64,000 nt of DNA from Octopus sinensis (GCF_006345805.1 NC_042997.1:190154001-190218000), one strand, 5' to 3'. Numbered from the stretch's first letter, positions 1,710-50,092 are shown. Numbers and translations: made by a program. The notes: generated from the sequence alone by a model not told the origin.

Positions 1710-2021
1710 ATATATATATATTATACCCGATTATATTGCTTTATATATACATATATATATATCATTATATATATGTATGCATATATATGTATGTACATAT
1801 ATATACATATAATATTATGTTATATATATAGTATAATATTATATATATATATCATATTGTACTACATTATGCTATATATATATGTGTGTGTGTGTATGTG
1901 CTATATAATATTGATATATATGTAATATATAGAAGAAATATGGTCAGTCGCCATGATAGATCGTTCTCCACAACACACATCTTTTTCTCTCCTTGTTTCT
2001 CTCCCTGTTTTTTTCTGTGCC

Positions 2022-2059
2022 CCTTTCTGCAGAAGAGCGTAGGCTCGAAACGTAAAAGG
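2022..2059 (+). ncRNA. Minimal hammerhead-like motif, family H1 copy 1
   Basis: CCTTT-CTGCAGA-A-GAGC-gtag-GCTC-GAAA-CG-TA-AAAGG, within a ~230 bp element (~1935-2160) between TA-rich tracts; core has C at position 6. Confidence 0.6.
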
Positions 2060-2209
2060 CTTTTTCTATTCCTGAGCGTTATACTAATACTAATACATCT
2101 GTTTGTTTTGTACACCACCTGTCTTCGTCTTTTGTTTTCTTTCTGTATGCTCTCCCTATATAGAACAAATATATTTATATACATAATATATAATTTAGAT
2201 ATGTATATA

Positions 2210-3744: not shown

Positions 3745-4120
3745 GGCGCAGGAGTGGCTGTGTGGTAAGTAGCTTGCTTACCAACCACACAGTTCCGGGT
3801 TCAGTCCCACTGCGTGGCACTTTGGACAAGTGTCTTCTACTATAGCCTCAGGCCGACCAAAGCCTTGTGAGTGGATTTGGTAGACGGAAACTGAAAGAAG
3901 CCCGTCGTATATATATATATATATGCATATATATGTGTGTGTTTGTGTGTCTGTGTTTGTCTCCCCAACATCGTTACTTAGCGGTTCGGCAAAGGAGACC
4001 GATAGGATAAGTACTGGGTTTACAAAGAATAAGTCCTGGGGTTGATTTGCTCGACTAAAAGGCGGTGCTCCAGCATGGCCGCGGTCAAATGACTGAAACA
4101 AGTAAGAGAGAAAAAGAGAA
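3745..4120 (+). mobile_element. tRNA-derived SINE family B (CORE-like domain)
   Basis: ggcgcaggagtggctgtgtggtaag head, gggttcagtccc B-box, CORE-like gtggcaccttgggcaagtgtctt, internal (TA)/(TG) tract, gtaaaaga tail. Confidence 0.88.
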
Positions 4121-4282
4121 AGAGAAATACATACACACGAACGCACACACACACACACACACACACACATCGAAACACACACATATATGTATGTATATAT
4201 ATATTTATCGCCATGTTGATTCGCTAGCTTCTGCACGCATTTTTTTCTCTCCTTGTTTCTCTCCGTGTTTCTTTTCCGTGTA

Positions 4283-4320
4283 TCTTTCTGTTGAAGAGCG
4301 TAAGCTCGAAACGTAAAAGA
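4283..4320 (+). ncRNA. Minimal hammerhead-like motif, family H1 copy 2
   Basis: TCTTT-CTGTTGA-A-GAGC-gtaa-GCTC-GAAA-CG-TA-AAAGA; stem I covaries with copy 1. Confidence 0.6.
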
Positions 4321-4790
4321 CTTGTTTTATTTATATTCCTGAGCGCCATACTAATACAATTGTTTGTTTGTATTCCACCTGCCTTCGTCTTTTGTTTATT
4401 TTCATAAAGTCTCCCGTTATATATATATGGGTGTGTGTATCATTGTATTGATAATTATGCTTAGACAACTGTGGAGGTGTAATTTATAGCTGATTAAGTT
4501 TCAGAGTCTAAAATATACGTTATCTAATTAATTATATACTTTGATGGCGGCAGACGTGAATATACACACAGGCGTCCTTGTGTACAGCGTGTGAATGCAT
4601 TCACATTATAATGCATTTATTTCGTTATAATACATTCATTTGGTTATAATATTCATATATACTTTGTAGTGTATATTCTCAAGCACGCATCTATGCTATC
4701 AATATCTTGTTAAATATGAAGTATTTCTGCGCGTCTGTAGCTAAAATTTATATTAGTAAATACTTTCCTATACGAACGTTTAATACTCTA

Positions 4791-5220
4791 GGCACAGGAG
4801 TGGCTGTGTGGTAAGTAGCTTGCTTACCAACCACATAGTTCCGGGTTCAGTCCCACTGCGTGGCATCTTGGGGAAGTGTCTTCTGCTATAGCCTCGGGCC
4901 GACCAATGCCTTGTGAGTGGATTTGGTAGACGGAAACTGAAAGAAGCCCATCATGTGTATGTTTGTATATGTATATATGTATGTGTGTGTATATGTTTGT
5001 GTGTCTGTGTTTGTTCCCCCAACATCGCTTGACAACCGATGCTGGTGTGTTTACGTCCCCGTAACATAGCGGTTCGGCAAAAGAGACCGATAGAATAAGT
5101 ACTGGGCTTTTTAAAAAAAAGGCCCCGGGTCGATTTGCTCGACTAAAAGGCGGTGCTCCAGCATGGCCGCAGTCAAATGACTGAAACTAGTAAAAGTAAA
5201 AGAAAAAGTAAAGAAAGAAA
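4791..5220 (+). mobile_element. SINE family B
   Basis: Full-length family match. Confidence 0.9.
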
Positions 5221-18020: not shown

Positions 18021-18219
18021 GCAATTAAGGACAACTACTTACTAAGGAAAACTTAACGACATTGTCAGGTAGGATATGCGTAAACTCATAAGATAAAAAT
18101 TTAGAAAATGTATTTCTTTTTTTTCATTGAACTTTAATTTAATATATAGCAGGGCTTAATGTATTAGAAATAAATACAACATGCCCCGCGGGTGGTCGTT
18201 GTTTATTTATAATACATTC

Positions 18220-18267
18220 AGGCCTGCTGATGATTACGTAAGTATGAAATCACTGTGATACAGGTCT
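18220..18267 (+). ncRNA. Type I hammerhead ribozyme motif (H2)
   Basis: AGGCCTG-CTGATGA-T-TAC-gtaa-GTA-T-GAA-ATCA-ctg-TGAT-A-CAGGTCT: intact core, stems I-III, predicted cleavage after 18260; in a ~370 bp insert between long (TA)n tracts. Confidence 0.8.
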
Positions 18268-18408
18268 ATATTTTTAAATGTCTTACTTTGAAAAATTGCA
18301 TTCGGTGGATTGTAATATTTTTGGTAGAATACTGATTGTCCTCTTAGCGTTTGGCATGTATGTATAATGCCTTCTAGCATGTATGTAAATGCCCTCTATA
18401 TATAAATT

Positions 18409-23222: not shown

Positions 23223-23388
23223 ATATTATATATATATATATGCCCACGATGGTATATTCGGGAAATCTAGTCGCTACATTGTCAGATAGTTGGAAATGTC
23301 TGATCACAACAGTTCTATATTTAAAAGATGACAAATTATGTACATTATTTACATTCGACGGATATTTGTCCTCATCTTGTTTGTTGTT

Positions 23389-23434
23389 AACACAACGTTT
23401 CGGCTGATATACCCTCCAGCCTTCATCGGGTGTC
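23389..23434 (-). ncRNA. Minimal hammerhead motif in tail of tRNA-headed element (H3, left copy)
   Basis: Minus: GACAC-CCGATGA-A-GGCTG-gagggtatat-CAGCC-GAAA-CG-TT-GTGTT (U4>C in this copy). Confidence 0.7.
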
Positions 23435-23481
23435 TTGGGGAAATTTCCAGCCTTAGCTTTCATTCCTAAGATATTTTTCGA

Positions 23482-23519
<38 letters not shown>

Positions 23520-24429: not shown

Positions 24430-24476
24430 GATCGAAAATACCTTATTAATGAGAACCCAGGTTCGAAATTTCCCCA

Positions 24477-24522
24477 AACCCCTGATGAAGGCTGGAGGGT
24501 ATATCAGTCAAAATGTTGTGTT
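24477..24522 (+). ncRNA. Minimal hammerhead motif (H3, right copy, decayed)
   Basis: CTGATGA-A-GGCTG-gagggtatat-CAGTC-AAAA-TG-TT-GTGTT; 5' core intact, GAAA mutated. Confidence 0.55.
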
Positions 24523-25396
24523 GATAACAAACAAGATGAGGACAAATATCCGCCAGATGTAAATAATGTAAATAATGAACATAATTCCTCTTCTCTTAAA
24601 TATAGAACTGAAATAAGTTAACCTTCGTGGAAGTTATACCCAAAATATAAATACCTCGCGTAATTTGTCCGATGCTCAAACGATGCTACTTATTCAAAGG
24701 CCCCTCAGATTGTATAAACGAAGCAGTAATATTTCATTGAATTATATGAATCAACTAATATGTATTACGATCAACGGAACAGCCTGCTCGTAAAATTAAC
24801 GTGAAGGTGGCTGAGTACTCCGAAGATACATGCACCTTTAACGCCATTGTCGGAGACGTTCATCGTTATAGAGAATGAGACAAGGCTGGCCATTTGAAGT
24901 ACTGGTGCAATTTAGTGTTGCTAGCTGAGTGAACTGTAGCAAGGTAAAATAAAGTGTAAAGGACACAACGTGCTGCCGGGAATCGAACACAGGACCTTAC
25001 GATCGTGAACCGAATATCGTAACCACTACGCTGTGCGCCTTCTTTCTCCCCTCTCTCTCCTCTCTTTATATATATATAATATATACATACATATACATAC
25101 ATGTACATATGTACAAACACGTCGTTTTATTACCTTGTATTCATGTTTAAGCAAATTAACAGTATTAGTTTTTAGGTTAAAAATGATACGAATATGCTTA
25201 AGATTATGTCATTTTAAACATTAATGGATTAATTTACTTTATTTAAGAATATTCCTCCGTATAGAAGATAACCAGTTTGCTTAATGGATAAATCCTTGCA
25301 AACATCTAAGTTGAGATTTTATATCCATGATCTACGTATGCATATATATATACTATAATATATATATATATATTATATATATGTTTGTGTGTGTGT

Positions 25397-28907: not shown

Positions 28908-29619
28908 TGTATGTATGTATGTATGTATGTATGTATGTATGCATGCATGTATGTATGCATGTATACGATACCTAGATATCAAGATTAGTCTATACTTGCA
29001 TTAGTCTATACTTGCATGTCTGCTTTTTTTTGTATGGATATCATATTTTTAAAAATTCACTTGCCAAATTTGCTGACAACAGCAACTCCTTGTGACAATC
29101 CTTTCTTTGAGAATCCACAATAAAATTAATTGAGAGAATGGCGACACATGTTCCAATTACGTCCATTTTAGAAATTGTTCTTTCTTCTAGTGCGCAACAA
29201 TCTCTTCCGTCTTCGTTTTCACTGTCTTTAATTTTCACTTCCACAAAAATACGCGAACTCAAGCACACGCATGCATACTTTTAACACTGCCATACACACA
29301 TGTACATGTATGTATGCATTATGAATACACACACACACTCACATATATATATATATGTATATATATATATACACATATATACATATATATATAAATTAAT
29401 TTTATGTATTTGCTTATGTTTTTCACTGTTTGATTTGCCTAATAGTGGTTTTATCTCTAATTTAATATAATAATATAATATATATATATATATATATAAT
29501 ATATGAATATATATATACGTGCATATGCATAACATGTGTTTAAATAAATAGATATGTACATGTATATCTATCTAACTCTCTGTTTTTCTTTCTCTCTCTC
29601 TATCTCTTCCAATATATAT

Positions 29620-34871: not shown

Positions 34872-36708
34872 CATGTATCGTACTCTTTTAACAGTGCGTT
34901 GATGACTCAACACCGAAGGTCTTACAAATTGAGGCTTGAGTTCTGCCATTGAATGAAGTATTACTTTCTCATTTGTCGTACGTTTTCTTGCCAGAGATAT
35001 TGGGATGGTTTACCATTGCTTCCTCCGACTGGATCACCGTTGGCCTACAAGGAACTCATCCAACATTAAACAGGTTGTACTTTTAGTGTTGCTGTGTGTC
35101 CGGGCACCCTTCTTACAAGAGTACAAGCCACTCAAGCTGGTGAGCCCGTTTAGTCACTGACTACTTCAAAGTTTTATGTTCTACCTAAGTAACCAATGTG
35201 TACTTTTAACCGTTACCGGACATTATAGTTTGACAATTATAAAAATCAAAACAATTGCAGCGTGGAAGGTGTTTATAAGCCATTTAAGAAACTCACAAAA
35301 CCGTTAGATTCACTTCAACATTTAAATTTAATTTGCCAAAATATTTTCGTCGCTTTGAGACCCCGACCTGTTCACTGACAAAATTCCGTGCTTCATCCCT
35401 TGAATTTTGTCAGTGAACAGGTCGCAGTCTCAAAGCGACGAAAATATTTTGGCAAATTAAATTTAAAGTTGAATTGAATCTAACGGTTTTGTGTGTTCTT
35501 AAATGGCTCATAAACACCTTCCACGCTGCAATTGTTTTCGTTCCAGCACACGATCTCAGATCAGGTCACTTGCAATGTCAGTACATCTCCGTAATAATAA
35601 CAATATATTTTTGCCAATATACAGCATTATGTGTGTGACGTAATTGACTTTGTGCTATGTATATATTCTTCTACAAGCAGTATATCTAATATATCGGCAC
35701 AATGACCTCTTAATGACAAAAGGCATTTGTGATATTTTGCCCGGCGTCATAATGATTGTGCCAGCTCGCTGCTTTTTTGTGCTACTTATGTAGCACAAAA
35801 AGCAGCGAGCTGGCACAATCATTATGACGCCGGGCAAAATATCACAAATGCCTTTTGTCATTAAGAGGTCATTGTGCCGATATATTAGATATACTGCTTG
35901 TAGAAGAATATATTACATAGCACAAAGTCAATTACGTCACACACATAATGCTGTATATTGGCAAAATATATTGTTATTATTACGGAGATGTACTGACATT
36001 GCAAGTGACCTGATCTGAGATCGTGTGCTGGAACGAAAACAATTGCAGCGTGGAAGGTGTTTATGAGCCATTTAAGAAACACACAAAAACCGTTAGATTC
36101 AATTCAACATTTAAATTTAATTTGCCAAAATATTTTCGTCGCTTTGAGACTGCGACCTGTTCACTGACAAAATTCAAGGGATGAAGCACGGAATTTTGTC
36201 AGTGAACAGGTCGGGGTCTCAAAGCGACGAAAATATTTTGGCAAATTAAATTTAAATGTTGAAGTGAATCTAACGGTTTTTGTGAGTTTCTTAAATGGCT
36301 TATAAACACCTTCCACGCTGCAATTGTTTTGATTTTTATAATTGTCAAACTATAATGTCCGGTAACGGTTAAAAGTACACATTTGGTTACTTAGGTAGAA
36401 CATAAAACTTTGAAGTAGTCAGTGACTAAACGGGCTCACCAGCTTGAGTGGCTTGTTACTCTTGTAAGAAGGGTGCCTGGACACACAGCAACACTAAAAG
36501 TACAACCTGTTTAATGTTGGATGAGTTCCTTGTAGGCCAACGGTGATCCAGTCGGAGGAAGCAATGGTAAACCATCCCAATATCTCTGGCAAGAAAACGT
36601 ACGACAAATGAGAAAGTAATACTTCATTCAATGGCAGAACTCAAGCCTCAATTTGTAAGACCTTCGGTGTTGAGTCATCAACGCACTGTTAAAAGAGTAC
36701 GATACATG
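34872..36708. repeat. 1.84 kb near-perfect palindrome (arms ~915 bp, 4 nt loop at 35786-35789)
   Basis: catgtatcgtactc... mirrored by ...gagtacgatacatg; centre tgtgctac-ttat-gtagcaca. Confidence 0.97.
35407..35455 (+). ncRNA. Hammerhead-like motif with G3-C8 core (H4); related copies on both strands within 35248-36330
   Basis: TTGTCA-GTGAACA-G-GTCGC-agtctcaaa-GCGAC-GAAA-ATAT-TT-TGGCAA. Confidence 0.6.
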
Positions 36709-43055: not shown

Positions 43056-43851
43056 GGGATCGTGCATGTGAGTGTGAGTGAGTGTGTATGTGAGTGTGTG
43101 TGTGTGTGTGTGTGTGTTTGTATGTGTGTATTGTGTGTGTATGCGTGTTTGTGTATGTGTGTGTGTGCGCGTGTGTGTAGTAAAAAAGAATTTCTCTGAA
43201 GGTTTTCCCCGCGCGGTGGAATTATAGTAATATATCTTCTGGAAAATTAAGCATATTTAATTCTCAGTTTGCGATATTTTTCATGCAGTTATTAAGGTTT
43301 TACAATATGTCTATTGACAAATCTAGTCTTTAGGGTCGATAACAATCGTTATTAGGAAATTAATGCCATTAATTCCCTATCATTAAATTGCTTTTAACGT
43401 AAATACATGCAAATTTGCGTACGAAACAAAAATATTTATATTCTTATGGATAATTCAAATTCATTATTATTTATATTGTAGTTCATTGATTTGTCACACA
43501 AATATGTATATAAAAAAGCATAGAAATATTCATGTAGTGTATATATATAAGTAATGAATAGTAACTTACTAAACCGCCGTTATTTATTACTTTTATTCCT
43601 ACCTCAGTTCATCTAATTGTATATATCTTTCGTTACTTTTCATGAAAAATCTTTACTTTTTTATTTACAATGTGCATTTTCGTTGATTTTTCTTACTTTC
43701 CCCTTACATTACCACGTATAGTTTCTATTTTCTTTTTGTAACATATTTCTATTATATATATATATATATATATATATGTCATTTTTCGTCATTGGAAAAA
43801 GGATATATATTTGCAACGGGAACCTAATTTTCATCGACAACCGGTGATTGT

Positions 43852-43896
43852 CACACGATGATGACGGGTCAATACGCAGAAACTCGAGTCCGTGCG
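43852..43896 (+). ncRNA. Minimal hammerhead motif, decayed (H5)
   Basis: CACACG-ATGATGA-cgggtcaatacgca-GAA-ACTCGAGT-C-CGTGCG; palindromic stem III and GUC triplet; C3>A and a weak stem II. Confidence 0.6.
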
Positions 43897-44541
43897 TATC
43901 ATACAGGTTGAAGATGGGAAGAATGGCTTGCCTTTGCAAATACTGATAGGGCACAGAAGGTGTGTCAATAGCCAGCTGGATGAGGTGTCCTTCTATGTCT
44001 ACAAGCTACAGTAGCATCTACCCTTAAGGGTTAGCCACATTTAAGTGGCAAATATACTTCACGATATATATGAATATATATTATTTTATATATACATATA
44101 TATATTAATATATATATATCTATCTATATATATATATTAATATATATATCAATATATATATATATAGATATATATATATATATACGTTTAAATATTTGTT
44201 GTGCAAGATTTTTTATGTGAAGTCGTGTGTTGAAACAGATATTGTTATATTTCGGAATGGTCATTTATATCATATTGCCGAAATAAGATTAAGATTAATG
44301 TAAAAAATAAATATCACTGAAGCAAAATAACATCAAATATATAGTGCGTGTGTTTTTATTGGCTAAACTGGCAATATGACCATTCCGAAATATAACAATA
44401 TATATATATATATTATATTAAATTAGAGATAAAACCACTATTAGGCAAATCATACAATGAAAAACTTAAGCCAATACATAAGATTAATTAATTTATATTA
44501 TTTAAATATATATCAAAATTATTAAAAAAGATAATTAATAT

Positions 44542-44610
44542 AACACTACGATCGTTTCATAGCTGTTCAATTCTTAAAATTTTCGAGTTACAGTCATTCT
44601 TCAGGTGGTT
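44542..44610 (-). ncRNA. Minimal type I hammerhead motif (H6, inverted copy)
   Basis: Minus: AACCAC-CTGAAGA-ATGACTGT...ACAGCTAT-GAA-ACGATCGT-A-GTGTT. Confidence 0.75.
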
Positions 44611-44710
44611 TAAATATTTAACTTGGCGAGGTTTAATCAATGAGTTCATTTATTAAACCTCACCAAGTTAAATGAGTTCATTGATTAAACCTCGCCAAGT
44701 TAAATATTTA

Positions 44711-44777
44711 AACCACCTGAAGATGACTGTAACTCGAAAATTTTAAGATTGAACAGCCATGAAACGATCGTAGTGTT
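44711..44777 (+). ncRNA. Minimal type I hammerhead motif (H6, forward copy)
   Basis: AACCAC-CTGAAGA-TGACTGT...ACAGCCAT-GAA-ACGATCGT-A-GTGTT. Confidence 0.75.
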
Positions 44778-44996
44778 ATATTAATTATCTTTTTTAATAA
44801 TTTTGATATATATTTAAATAATATAAATTAATTAATCTTATGTATTGGCTTAAGTTTTTCATTGTATGATTTGCCTAATAGTGGTTTTATCTCTAATTTA
44901 ATATAATATAATATTTTACTATAAAATTGGATTCAATCCTAAATCTGATTTTTCCCTGTAAGTTTGGATTTATTCCCTAATATTTTATTATTAATA

Positions 44997-45040
<44 letters not shown>

Positions 45041-45260
45041 ATATATATATATATATATACAATATATATATATATATATATAATATATATATATACAAAT
45101 ATATATATGTTCAACTTATAAATAAGGGCAAAGAAAAAACTTCCAATGCCAAATATGCCGAGAATAGTCTTTGAATCGTCACTAACCACAAATAATACAT
45201 CACTATAATAAGCACGCGTCTCGAAGAAAGGTGACAGAAATTTCTAAAAATATTCCGTTA

Positions 45261-45321
45261 TTACCGAATCGGTCCGATTTCTGAGTTAATCCATTAAGAC
45301 CTTTCTCGTCATCAGCAGTAA
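45261..45321 (-). ncRNA. Type I hammerhead motif (H7)
   Basis: Minus: TTACTG-CTGATGA-C-GAG...CTC-A-GAA-ATCGGACCGAT-T-CGGTAA; in a ~300 bp insert between (TA)n. Confidence 0.7.
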
Positions 45322-45452
45322 ATACATTATTCATAAGTTGTTTATAATCTTCACCTTAAAACGTATTTTTTTAATATGATGATAAATTTTTTGACAATTT
45401 TATCCTATATTAGATGTATATATATATCTTTATATGTATATATATGTATATA

Positions 45453-45506
<54 letters not shown>

Positions 45507-45629
45507 TTATATAACGCATGAACATGATCCACCCGATGTCTATGAACACTATGGACTCCACTGTGAACCTGAGAATCATGTGATTTATGGAAACGCACGT
45601 AAGGATTAAAATATTTATAAATTCCATCA

Positions 45630-45687
<58 letters not shown>

Positions 45688-46019
45688 GCATAAATACATA
45701 CATACATACATACATATATACATACATACATACATAAGGAGTGATGCAGCGTGCTTGAACTATTTTGATAAAGTAATAAGAAAGAAGTGGAAGAGCTTCT
45801 TACACAGGAAAATGGAGAAAGTTTAATAGCCTTTAAATGGTCTCTTTGTATTTCAATCAGACAGGTCCCTCATCACAGATAAGCAGGATATAAAAGTTAG
45901 CAATATGCAGTAGCCGTCATGTTTATCGCTGTTGAAGCAACAACCAATATAACTGATTCTGAATAGAGTAGCGTTATGGACCGTGTGATCCTGTTGCTGA
46001 GCTTTTATGTGACTGAAGA

Positions 46020-46100
<81 letters not shown>

Positions 46101-46116
46101 ATTTATGTATGTGTAT

Positions 46117-46159
<43 letters not shown>

Positions 46160-46234
46160 TATGTATGCATGTATATATATGATAGATCGTTAGCCACTAC
46201 ACACATTTTTTCTCTCCTTGTTTTTTTCTGTGTC

Positions 46235-46272
46235 CCTTTCTGTAGAAGAGCGTAGGCTCGAAACGTAAAATA
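46235..46272 (+). ncRNA. Minimal hammerhead-like motif, family H1 copy 3
   Basis: CCTTT-CTGTAGA-A-GAGC-gtag-GCTC-GAAA-CG-TA-AAAta; element ~46180-46365 between (TA)n. Confidence 0.5.
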
Positions 46273-46907
46273 CTTTTTCTATTCCTGAGCGTTATACTAA
46301 TATATCTGTTTGTTTTGTACACCACCTGTCTTCGTCTTTTGTTTCTTTTTTCGTAAACTCTCCCTATATATATATATATATATATATATACAATATATAT
46401 ATATATAGATATATATATATATATATATATATGCACCCACATATATAACTACATATAAATAATGTGTAAATGGCAATCAAAGAATGCTGGGCTTTTCAGA
46501 AAGGAAAGGAATGGCTACCATAATCTTACTGATATAGCGTGTATGGAACTGTAAAATTATACAAGGCTTTTCTGCTGCTAAATACAATTATTATTGTTGG
46601 ACATTTTAAAATTTTTTAATAGATTTATGTGGAGTGACTTTACAATAAGGAGCGGAACTTACAATTTCATGTAATTCAGATAGCCTCATGCTTCCAGTAG
46701 ACAAAATGGAAATGGCATTGCCCCGGAGAATGGCGTCCGAGATTTGCTGGAGTAACCATTCTAACACACAGGACACAAGGATTTCTTATTCCATACGTGG
46801 CAAATATCAATCTTATCTATATTGATGGAGCTTTTGTTTAGAAACCAACTCCTTCCAAGACGAAATTAAATAAATAAAAAGCGAATATACACCCTAGTTT
46901 GTCTATG

Positions 46908-49852: not shown

Positions 49853-49899
<47 letters not shown>

Positions 49900-50092
49900 C
49901 GCATATTTACCATTTGAATATGGCTAACCCATAAGGGTGGATGGTACTGTAGTATCTACAAACTACAGTAGCATCCACCCTTATGGGTTAGCCATATTCA
50001 AATGGCAAATATGCGTCACGATGTGTTACCGCTACTGTTTATAACTCGCTCTGAGATTTATCATTATATATATATATTTATTTATATATAAG

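What the first reader, a model, noticed from the sequence alone, without database searches (positions are those of the whole stretch)
43778..46365. 2.6 kb hot spot of stacked TA-embedded ribozyme elements
In sequence, separated mainly by (TA)n: H5 (43778-44065), an inverted-repeat element (~44185-44400), H6 (44409-44995), H7 (~45110-45410), a decayed motif at 45527-45606 and H1 (46180-46365). Different families converge on one microsatellite, suggesting each insertion preserves or extends the target.
Basis: partly seen in the sequence, partly recalled or inferred. Interest (0 to 1): 0.7.

Follow-up and report, generated by a model that had tools for sequence, protein, structure and literature searches.

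The report
Stacked Penelope retroelement ends in microsatellite
This is a pile-up of short leftover ends of several abundant repeat families, two of them traced to Penelope-like jumping genes and the rest likely of the same kind, most of which sit next to TA repeats; only some copies keep a complete predicted self-cutting RNA motif, and the arrangement is largely known biology.

Summary
The stack is real and runs further left than reported (a seventh repeat at 43583-43752). All six pieces belong to multi-copy families whose typical copies carry a minimal hammerhead-like motif. Two families (the 'inverted-repeat element' and H1) are the 3' ends of Penelope-like retrotransposons with RT, a CX4CX2C linker and a GIY-YIG-type nuclease. 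H5, H6 and H7 share the inverted-copy-plus-tail anatomy, but no parent was found.

TA targeting holds: 28 of 32 randomly sampled H1/H6 ends abut (TA)n, against 37 of 417 SINE ends. Insertions preserve the target (TA on both sides in 18 of 23 H6 copies). 'Extends the target' is not supported: no excess co-occupancy (18 vs 14.1 expected) and no longer tracts.

Corrections: only H6 and H7 keep an intact core here; M abuts (ATT)n; unique DNA separates H1 from the rest. (TA)n preference, inverted copies, tails and pLTR hammerheads are published, and this scan noted such stacks before in other genomes.

Side result: an ORF1-only LINE-like element inserts preferentially just upstream of the H5 hammerhead (11 of 19 ends); the window holds the empty site.

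The parts
43583..43752 (+).
   Evidence: copies in L238, L251; high depth in four runs
43778..44065 (+). H5: part of a 349-bp unit that also occurs as tandem dimers/trimers; ends at the tail-less 3' end; about 89% identical to its best relatives
43840..43854 (+). Empty target site that in other H5 copies holds an ORF1-only LINE-like element
43852..43896 (+). H5 minimal type I hammerhead motif, likely inactive in this copy (C3 to A at 43858, helix II mismatch, helix I change at 43895)
44185..44401 (.). IR: head-to-head pair of 3' ends of a Neptune/Nematis-type PLE; tail arm 44185-44264 (-), tail-less arm 44277-44401 (+); hammerhead-like motif not included; about 98% identical to relatives
44404..44985 (.). 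H6: head-to-head pair; tail-less arm 44404-44641 (-), tail arm 44680-44985 (+), 32-bp duplication at the centre; about 99% identical to relatives
44543..44608 (-). H6 left-arm minimal hammerhead motif: intact core, short helix I, long helix II, palindromic helix III
44713..44776 (+). H6 right-arm hammerhead motif; lacks the extra base after A9 and one base in the helix II loop
45112..45410 (.). H7: head-to-head pair; tail-less arm 45112-45329 (-), short tail arm about 45327-45410 (+); about 85% identical to relatives
45261..45321 (-). H7 minimal type I hammerhead motif: intact core, 6-bp helix I with one G-U, palindromic helix III
45513..45632 (+). M: decayed end of a family with a long-helix-II hammerhead motif; only GAAA and helix III remain (45590-45601); followed by (ATT)n
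46179..46365 (+). H1: 3' end of a Neptune/Nematis-type PLE; motif at 46236-46271 with a family-wide A6 to U and a helix I change at 46271
43753..45513 (.). (TA)n tracts between the pieces: 43753-43777, 44064-44184, about 44398-44413, 44994-45108, 45406-45513; further tracts at 46020-46180 and 46365-46432

Best explanation
The region is a stack of short 3'-end fragments of at least six repeat families; two are traced to Penelope-like retrotransposons (PLEs), the others are likely PLE-derived or PLE-mobilised, and they likely inserted one after another because each independently prefers (TA)n. Shown: family membership, RT/GIY-YIG parents for IR and H1, two discrete 3' ends in four families, head-to-head pairs with one tailed and one tail-less arm, strong TA adjacency, and TA left on both sides of H6. 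Inferred mechanism: the PLE nuclease cuts both strands within (TA)n. Each cut end primes reverse transcription of the element RNA at one of two internal start sites; synthesis stops early and the two cDNAs are joined head to head. The insertion splits the tract into two tracts that remain ordinary targets, so stacks build passively with no added attraction. Here the young IR and H6 (98-99%) likely split a tract lying between the older H5 and H7 (85-89%). The hammerhead motifs ride along as part of the terminal repeat; their cleavage is untested and several copies are broken.
For: Parents: L186 holds inverted terminal copy, ORF, 3' repeat and tail, with RVT_1 E 0.002 and GIY-YIG E 0.001, both under Pfam cut-off, and a CX4CX2C linker. 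9 of 30 IR loci hold pieces of this ORF. H1 ends an element with RVT_1 E 4.8e-8; linker and GIY-YIG-like motifs are read by eye in L181/L182. Two 3' ends: H6 235/306, IR 447/501, H7 about 372/423-450, H5 283/325. 52 of 55 head-to-head pairs with both ends assignable are short/tail, of 87 pair calls. TA within 28 nt: random sample H1 11 of 14, H6 9 of 10 and 8 of 8; family loci H1 27 of 32, H6 20 of 22 and 14 of 14, IR 19 of 24 and 19 of 21, H7 15 of 19. Controls: SINE outer ends 37 of 417, random sites 1028 of 20000, AT-rich sites 419 of 10729 (OR 72, p 2e-22). No clustering beyond the TA baseline. Literature: PMC8557442, PMC4209133, PMC11167929.
Against: No RT-bearing parent was found for H5, H6, H7 or M (a limited search). 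H5 is only partly TA-linked (7 of 21 short ends, 13 of 21 tail ends within 45 nt), H7 tail ends 9 of 25, M 4 of 37. In the random sample IR tail ends were 0 of 3, and H5, H7 and M 0 of 1 each. H1 shows one main 3' end and few inverted pairs. The in vitro study found no strand difference in RT start site (PMC11167929). The locus exceeds all 480 random tiles, and IR next to H6 recurs (L186, L140, L224), so weak extra feedback is not excluded. No empty-site allele was seen.
Confidence: 0.82

Rival explanations
1. Positive-feedback hot spot: each insertion lengthens the TA tract or makes it more attractive, so families converge more than a shared preference explains.
For: 6 TA-abutting elements here against at most 4 in 480 random tiles. 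Neighbours at 15 of 165 loci against 5 of 176 SINE copies (p 0.02). One H6 copy has a 57-bp flank duplication (L087). IR-H6 adjacency recurs.
Against: The excess over SINEs vanishes against TA tracts (132 of 1236, p 0.59). Double occupancy is 18 vs 14.1 (p 0.27), and occupied blocks are not longer. 0 of 41 random-sample insertions of the six families have another of the six within 500 bp. The families were chosen from this locus.
Confidence: 0.12
2. The TA comes from the elements (tails or seeds that expand after insertion), not from targeting pre-existing tracts.
For: Several ends are AT-rich and run into TA. M is followed by (ATT)n in 38 of 42 cases, which fits a tail. SINE B carries an internal microsatellite (75 of 126).
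Against: Two different 3' ends of one RNA, 50-70 nt apart, both abut TA, while the template continues in non-TA sequence past the short end. Flanks differ between 99%-identical copies. (TA)n is listed as insertion preference for octopus PLE families.
Confidence: 0.05
3. The pieces are active retrozymes replicating as circular RNA independently of PLE genes, or microsatellite-targeting MITEs (for the palindromes).
For: H5 forms 349-bp tandem dimers and a trimer with a near-canonical motif. H6 and IR look like inverted-repeat elements.
Against: The palindromes have arms of unequal, variable length and a tail on one side only. IR and H1 continue into PLE ORFs. Window copies are single and partly broken. 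Retrozymes are themselves proposed to be PLE derivatives (10.64898/2026.07.22.740005).
Confidence: 0.08

Closest known systems
EN+ Penelope-like elements, Neptune/Nematis clades (Craig et al. 2021, PMC8557442; passages and supplement searches seen)
   Same: RT then CX2-5CxxC linker then GIY-YIG; inverted 5'-truncated copy; tail at one end only; microsatellite bias; (TA)n listed for octopus Naiad and Hydra families.
   Different: Tails here are about 42-70 nt against 30-40 reported. Six short motifs of these families gave no hit in that supplement (line breaks may hide hits). Clade not placed on a tree.
[quoted passage not shown]
   Same: Type I order, extra base after A9, palindromic helix III needing a dimer, mostly single dispersed copies, opposite-strand pairs 100-700 bp apart.
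   Different: Family-wide core changes: A6 to U in H1 (29 of 65 motifs read CUGUAGA-A), A9 to C in IR (35 of 40); a helix II of about 100 nt in M. Activity untested.
Poseidon PLE from Anolis in vitro (Frangieh et al. 2024, PMC11167929; parts 1-2 of 4 read)
   Same: Cuts and extends both strands in AT-rich DNA; two internal RT start sites that delimit the tail; hammerhead not needed for insertion.
   Different: No strand bias of start site seen in vitro, whereas 52 of 55 genomic pairs here use one site on each arm.
Non-LTR retrozymes (Li et al. 2026, 10.64898/2026.07.22.740005, part 1 of 5 read; PMC7229834 search listing only)
   Same: H5: non-coding unit of 349 bp with a type I motif, in tandem at a few loci.
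   Different: Mostly monomers and inverted pairs with tails; the window copy is single with a broken core; no RNA evidence.
Tx1-clade LINEs that target other transposons (PMC4494074, passages) and ORF1-only HAL1 (PMC5753468, passages); relevant to the side finding only
   Same: Site preference inside another repeat, 13-18 bp target duplications, tandem insertions around a duplication, ORF1 only.
   Different: The target is a hammerhead-bearing PLE-type repeat; no ORF2 partner was identified, so the clade is inferred.

Membership tests
EN+ Penelope-like element (Neptune/Nematis) | RT followed by C-terminal GIY-YIG in the parent element | tested here: met
   For IR (L186) and H1 (L181, L182) only; IR Pfam scores under cut-off; ORFs frameshifted as they stand
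EN+ Penelope-like element (Neptune/Nematis) | Coding parent for H5, H6, H7, M | tested here: inconclusive
   None found in 1.5-kb flanks of 30 loci each or in extended loci; no genome-wide RT search was run
EN+ Penelope-like element (Neptune/Nematis) | CX2-5CxxC linker before the nuclease | tested here: met
   CX4CX2C read in P0002 and in L182
EN+ Penelope-like element (Neptune/Nematis) | Inverted truncated copy and optional tail at one end | tested here: met
   IR, H6, H7, H5; not shown for H1 or M
EN+ Penelope-like element (Neptune/Nematis) | Placement in the RT phylogeny | not tested
   No reference alignment at hand; Neptune versus Nematis left open
Minimal type I hammerhead | Core boxes with helices I, II and palindromic helix III (family level) | tested here: met
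   H5, H6, H7, M; H6 lineage 95.9% of 73 cells paired, one compensatory pair, covariation not significant
Minimal type I hammerhead | Canonical core in the H1 and IR families and in the window's H5, IR and M copies | tested here: not met
   A6U, A9C, C3A, absent and half, respectively; changes at 6 lower activity (PMC3088659, PMC7151607: A6C, not A6U), C3G abolishes it (PMC11167929)
Minimal type I hammerhead | Self-cleavage | not testable with these tools
   Needs an in vitro assay
Non-LTR retrozyme (H5) | Tandem units each with a complete motif | tested here: inconclusive
   Trimer at L190 keeps the core in 3 of 3 units but has helix I changes in all 3 and helix II changes; the window copy is a monomer
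Non-LTR retrozyme (H5) | Circular RNA | not tested
   No RNA holder was listed for the flank searched; H5 itself was not searched or laid on RNA runs
MITE / TIR DNA transposon (IR, H6) | Fixed terminal inverted repeats of equal length | tested here: not met
   Arms unequal and variable, tail on one side

The most novel reading that the evidence does not exclude
Three-tier parasitism: (TA)n hosts PLE-type hammerhead repeats, and one of them (H5) is itself the preferred target of an ORF1-only LINE derivative. It inserts a few bases upstream of hammerhead helix I, leaves the motif intact downstream, could use the flanking hammerheads of tandem H5 to process its RNA, and is also carried to new sites by the PLE machinery. 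In addition, the one-tail-per-insertion rule (52 of 55) would mean the two subunits of a PLE dimer use different RT start sites in vivo.
Probability: 0.3. Interest if true: 0.6.

Novelty: new member of a known kind. Interest (0 to 1): 0.3.

Why it matters
The stack itself is an upper-tail example of a published behaviour. Its value is quantitative: it gives a controlled estimate of (TA)n preference for several PLE-type families and shows that stacking needs no feedback beyond splitting a tract. It also suggests tens of thousands of hammerhead-like motifs in this genome that Rfam misses (21 descriptor hits in 1.2 Mb; none at gathering score in this window). Two points could interest a transposon specialist: the near-strict short/tail pairing, which is a testable constraint on PLE priming, and the LINE-like element that targets a ribozyme-bearing repeat.

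Tried and rejected
Rfam at gathering score: 0 hits. My first reading of H6 as 'core boxes only' used the wrong GAAA; older relatives corrected it. Monomer folding gave no support. Pair count one search used a shifted structure and is void; one search replaces it. TSD search: one convincing flank duplication among 23 H6 loci, three short AT-rich ones among 84 H5/H7/IR loci, none among 28 H1 loci, and 2 of 403 in controls, so no general TSD claim. Empty-site test: contigs of 4 runs from 3 coded organisms do not span the region, no verdict. No RNA holder listed for the unique flank. No PLE ORF match in the window. Parent hunt for H5/H6/H7/M was negative; the H6 lineage has at least 1.2 kb of shared upstream sequence in which no ORF was seen. 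Protein search with the ORF1 piece among longer proteins found nothing (weak); Atlas look-alikes are CCHC and RRM-type clusters (leads only). The site regex was too strict (3 of 19); the count of 11 comes from the BLAST columns and printed sequences of that call. Six motifs were not found in the PMC8557442 supplement. Paper searches showed no paper on these families or on a LINE targeting a hammerhead repeat; Repbase, most subscription papers and bioRxiv supplements were not searchable. Rejected: MITE reading, single-microsatellite reading, gag-bearing PLE reading for H5 (target duplications at three non-H5 sites).

Full report
Setting. The window lies at G000:C1:190154001-190218000 in a 2.72-Gb animal genome. 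Its repeats look octopus-like; that is recalled, not shown by a call. (TA)n is very common: 1362 tracts of 12 nt or more in 1.2 Mb of random sample. The sample is 120 of 160 planned 10-kb regions, drawn by a seeded generator from 29 large contigs within lower-bound lengths.

Observation. The six pieces are present and each returned 40 scored candidates in a genome search. In the random sample there were 18 H1, 12 H6-lineage, 6 H5, 2 H7, 2 IR and 1 M insertions, which extrapolates to roughly 41,000, 27,000, 14,000, 4,500, 4,500 and 2,300 copies with wide intervals. A seventh repeat fragment lies at 43583-43752. The TA-separated run covers 43583-45513. M ends in (ATT)n, and (CATA)n plus about 280 bp of apparently unique DNA separate it from H1. 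So 'one microsatellite' holds for the left two-thirds only.

Identity. L186 contains an inverted terminal copy, a frameshifted ORF, then the 3' repeat with tail whose last 125-180 bp make up the window's IR piece. The ORF matches RVT_1 (E 0.002) and GIY-YIG (E 0.001), both under Pfam cut-off, and has a CX4CX2C linker; 9 of 30 IR loci hold pieces of it. H1 is the 3' end of an element with RVT_1 (E 4.8e-8); linker and GIY-YIG-like motifs are read by eye. By Craig et al. (PMC8557442, passages) this linker marks the Neptune and Nematis clades. No coding parent was found for H5, H6, H7 or M. H5, H6, H7 and IR each have two discrete 3' ends 42-71 nt apart. Of 87 head-to-head pair calls (some loci counted more than once), 55 had both ends assignable, and 52 of these pair one short and one tailed end. 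This is the published PLE layout: inverted truncated copy, tail at one end.

Hammerheads. Typical H5 and H7 copies have CUGAUGA, GAAA, a palindromic helix III and a 6-bp helix I (19 of 23 and 23 of 35 anchored motifs read CUGAUGA). H6 has a long helix II; with five older relatives, 95.9% of 73 cells pair and one helix III pair covaries, which is not significant and rests on a structure drawn from these sequences. M has a helix II of about 100 nt (4 motifs). H1 has a family-wide A6 to U, while a related family with the same layout keeps A6; IR has A9 to C. These fit the minimal hammerheads of Cervera and De la Pena (PMC4209133, parts 1-2 of 4), which need a dimer and cleave weakly. In the window, H6 (both arms) and H7 keep the core; H5 has C3 to A; IR lacks the motif; M has half. 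Changes at position 6 reduce activity in magnesium (A6C; PMC3088659 and PMC7151607, passages). Against: Rfam 0 hits, no folding signal in six monomers, no cleavage data.

TA preference. (TA)4 within 28 nt of the 3' end: in the random sample H1 11 of 14 and H6 17 of 18; in family loci (top hits; the window's own loci and 7 overlapping or duplicated loci dropped) H1 27 of 32, H6 34 of 36, IR 38 of 45, H7 short end 15 of 19, H5 short end 7 of 21, M 4 of 37. Controls: SINE outer ends 37 of 417, random sites 5.1%, AT-rich sites 3.9%. 28 of 32 against 37 of 417 gives OR 72, p 2e-22. The few random-sample ends of the rarer families were mostly negative (IR 2 of 5; H5, H7, M 0 of 1 each). (TA)n preference is already tabulated for octopus Naiad and Hydra PLEs.

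Hot spot or shared taste. TA remains on both sides in 18 of 23 H6, 11 of 28 H1, 10 of 28 IR, 7 of 29 H5 and 3 of 27 H7 insertions, so an insertion often turns one target into two. No further feedback appeared. Another of the six families lies within 500 bp at 15 of 165 loci (9 overlapping or duplicated loci dropped), more than at SINEs (5 of 176, p 0.02) but the same as at any TA tract (132 of 1236, p 0.59; that control used a slightly wider span). With families found de novo, 18 of 547 TA blocks have elements on both sides against 14.1 expected (p 0.27), and occupied blocks are not longer. Random 2.6-kb tiles hold 0, 1, 2, 3, 4 elements in 366, 79, 28, 6, 1 of 480 cases. This locus holds 6, an upper-tail case in a count that favours its own families. 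Extrapolating the decline suggests on the order of a hundred such stacks genome-wide (inference). The sample is too small to exclude weak feedback.

Mechanism. Shown: anatomy, parents for two families, TA adjacency, short/tail pairing. From the literature: a PLE protein cuts and extends both strands of AT-rich DNA, starts at two internal RNA sites that delimit the tail, and does not need the hammerhead (PMC11167929, parts 1-2 of 4). Inferred: both cut ends prime, one at each site; early stop and head-to-head joining give the palindromes; the linker may guide TA choice, a hypothesis cited in PMC8557442. Inferred order: old H5 and H7 flank a tract later split by young IR and H6 (identities).

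Side result. A 1.8-kb element with a zinc-knuckle ORF (zf-CCHC above cut-off) and no RT sits inside H5 at many loci. The H5 positions about 63-78 are duplicated around it, and three copies outside H5 have 14-18 bp target duplications. Of 19 exact matches to its 3' end, chosen without regard to H5, 8 run into H5 at positions 63-69, 1 into the site and a diverged H5 piece, 2 into the site and a further copy of itself, and 8 into other DNA. The H5 hosts range from 74 to 95% identity, which points to separate insertions. Of ten 5'-truncated copies whose start follows unrelated DNA, three are those TSD-bearing copies and seven continue into H5 at the 3' end, which fits later transport by the PLE route (inference). 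Precedents are Tx1 families that target other transposons and ORF1-only HAL1 (passages); the clade here is inferred. The window's H5 is an empty site.

Verdict. A real, somewhat extreme stack of PLE-type end fragments, explained by a shared and published (TA)n preference. New member of a known kind; interest 0.3. Earlier notes of this scan describe the same kind of stack in other genomes.

Noticed in passing
L185:2847-4685; L316; L317; L318-L356; empty site window 43840-43854: ORF1-only (zf-CCHC) LINE-like element that inserts preferentially just upstream of the H5 hammerhead with 13-18 bp target duplications; its ORF has a very large family in the genome (14,245 first-look candidates).
   Followed up: partly
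H1 copies in L195-L314: All 18 random H1 copies begin at library position 53 or later, 16 of them at 53-88, although the parent extends kilobases upstream; this preferred 5' end lies upstream of the predicted cleavage site and is unexplained.
   Followed up: no
IR family (e.g. L186:4075-4120) and H1 family: Family-wide hammerhead core changes (A9 to C plus an extra G; A6 to U) in young, successful families, suggesting cleavage is dispensable or the variants are tolerated.
   Followed up: partly
L195-L314: Dozens of further TA-abutting repeat families, many with intact minimal hammerhead motifs.
   Followed up: partly
window 18215-18270 (+): Intact minimal type I hammerhead motif with a long palindromic helix III, inside another TA-flanked repeat.
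   Followed up: no
window 1946-2157, 4208-4415, 29375-29481, 49893-50065: Further H1, H6-lineage and H5 fragments; the last is a short/tail inverted pair.
   Followed up: partly
window 23309-23483 with 24431-24610; 35248-35600 with 35974-36330: Pairs of multi-copy segments that appear inverted; the first pair borders (TTA)n/(AAT)n and surrounds a 22-bp tandem array.
   Followed up: no
L087: H6 insertion flanked by a 57-bp direct repeat of an interrupted TA tract, a possible long target duplication.
   Followed up: partly
L295:5430-8102: 2.7-kb H6-lineage palindrome with long arms lacking a convincing ORF; the arm is shared by 40 scored loci.
   Followed up: partly
window 3745-4104, 4780-5187 and many others: An abundant SINE-like repeat carries an internal (TA)n(TG)n microsatellite; usable as a control only at its outer ends.
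   Followed up: partly
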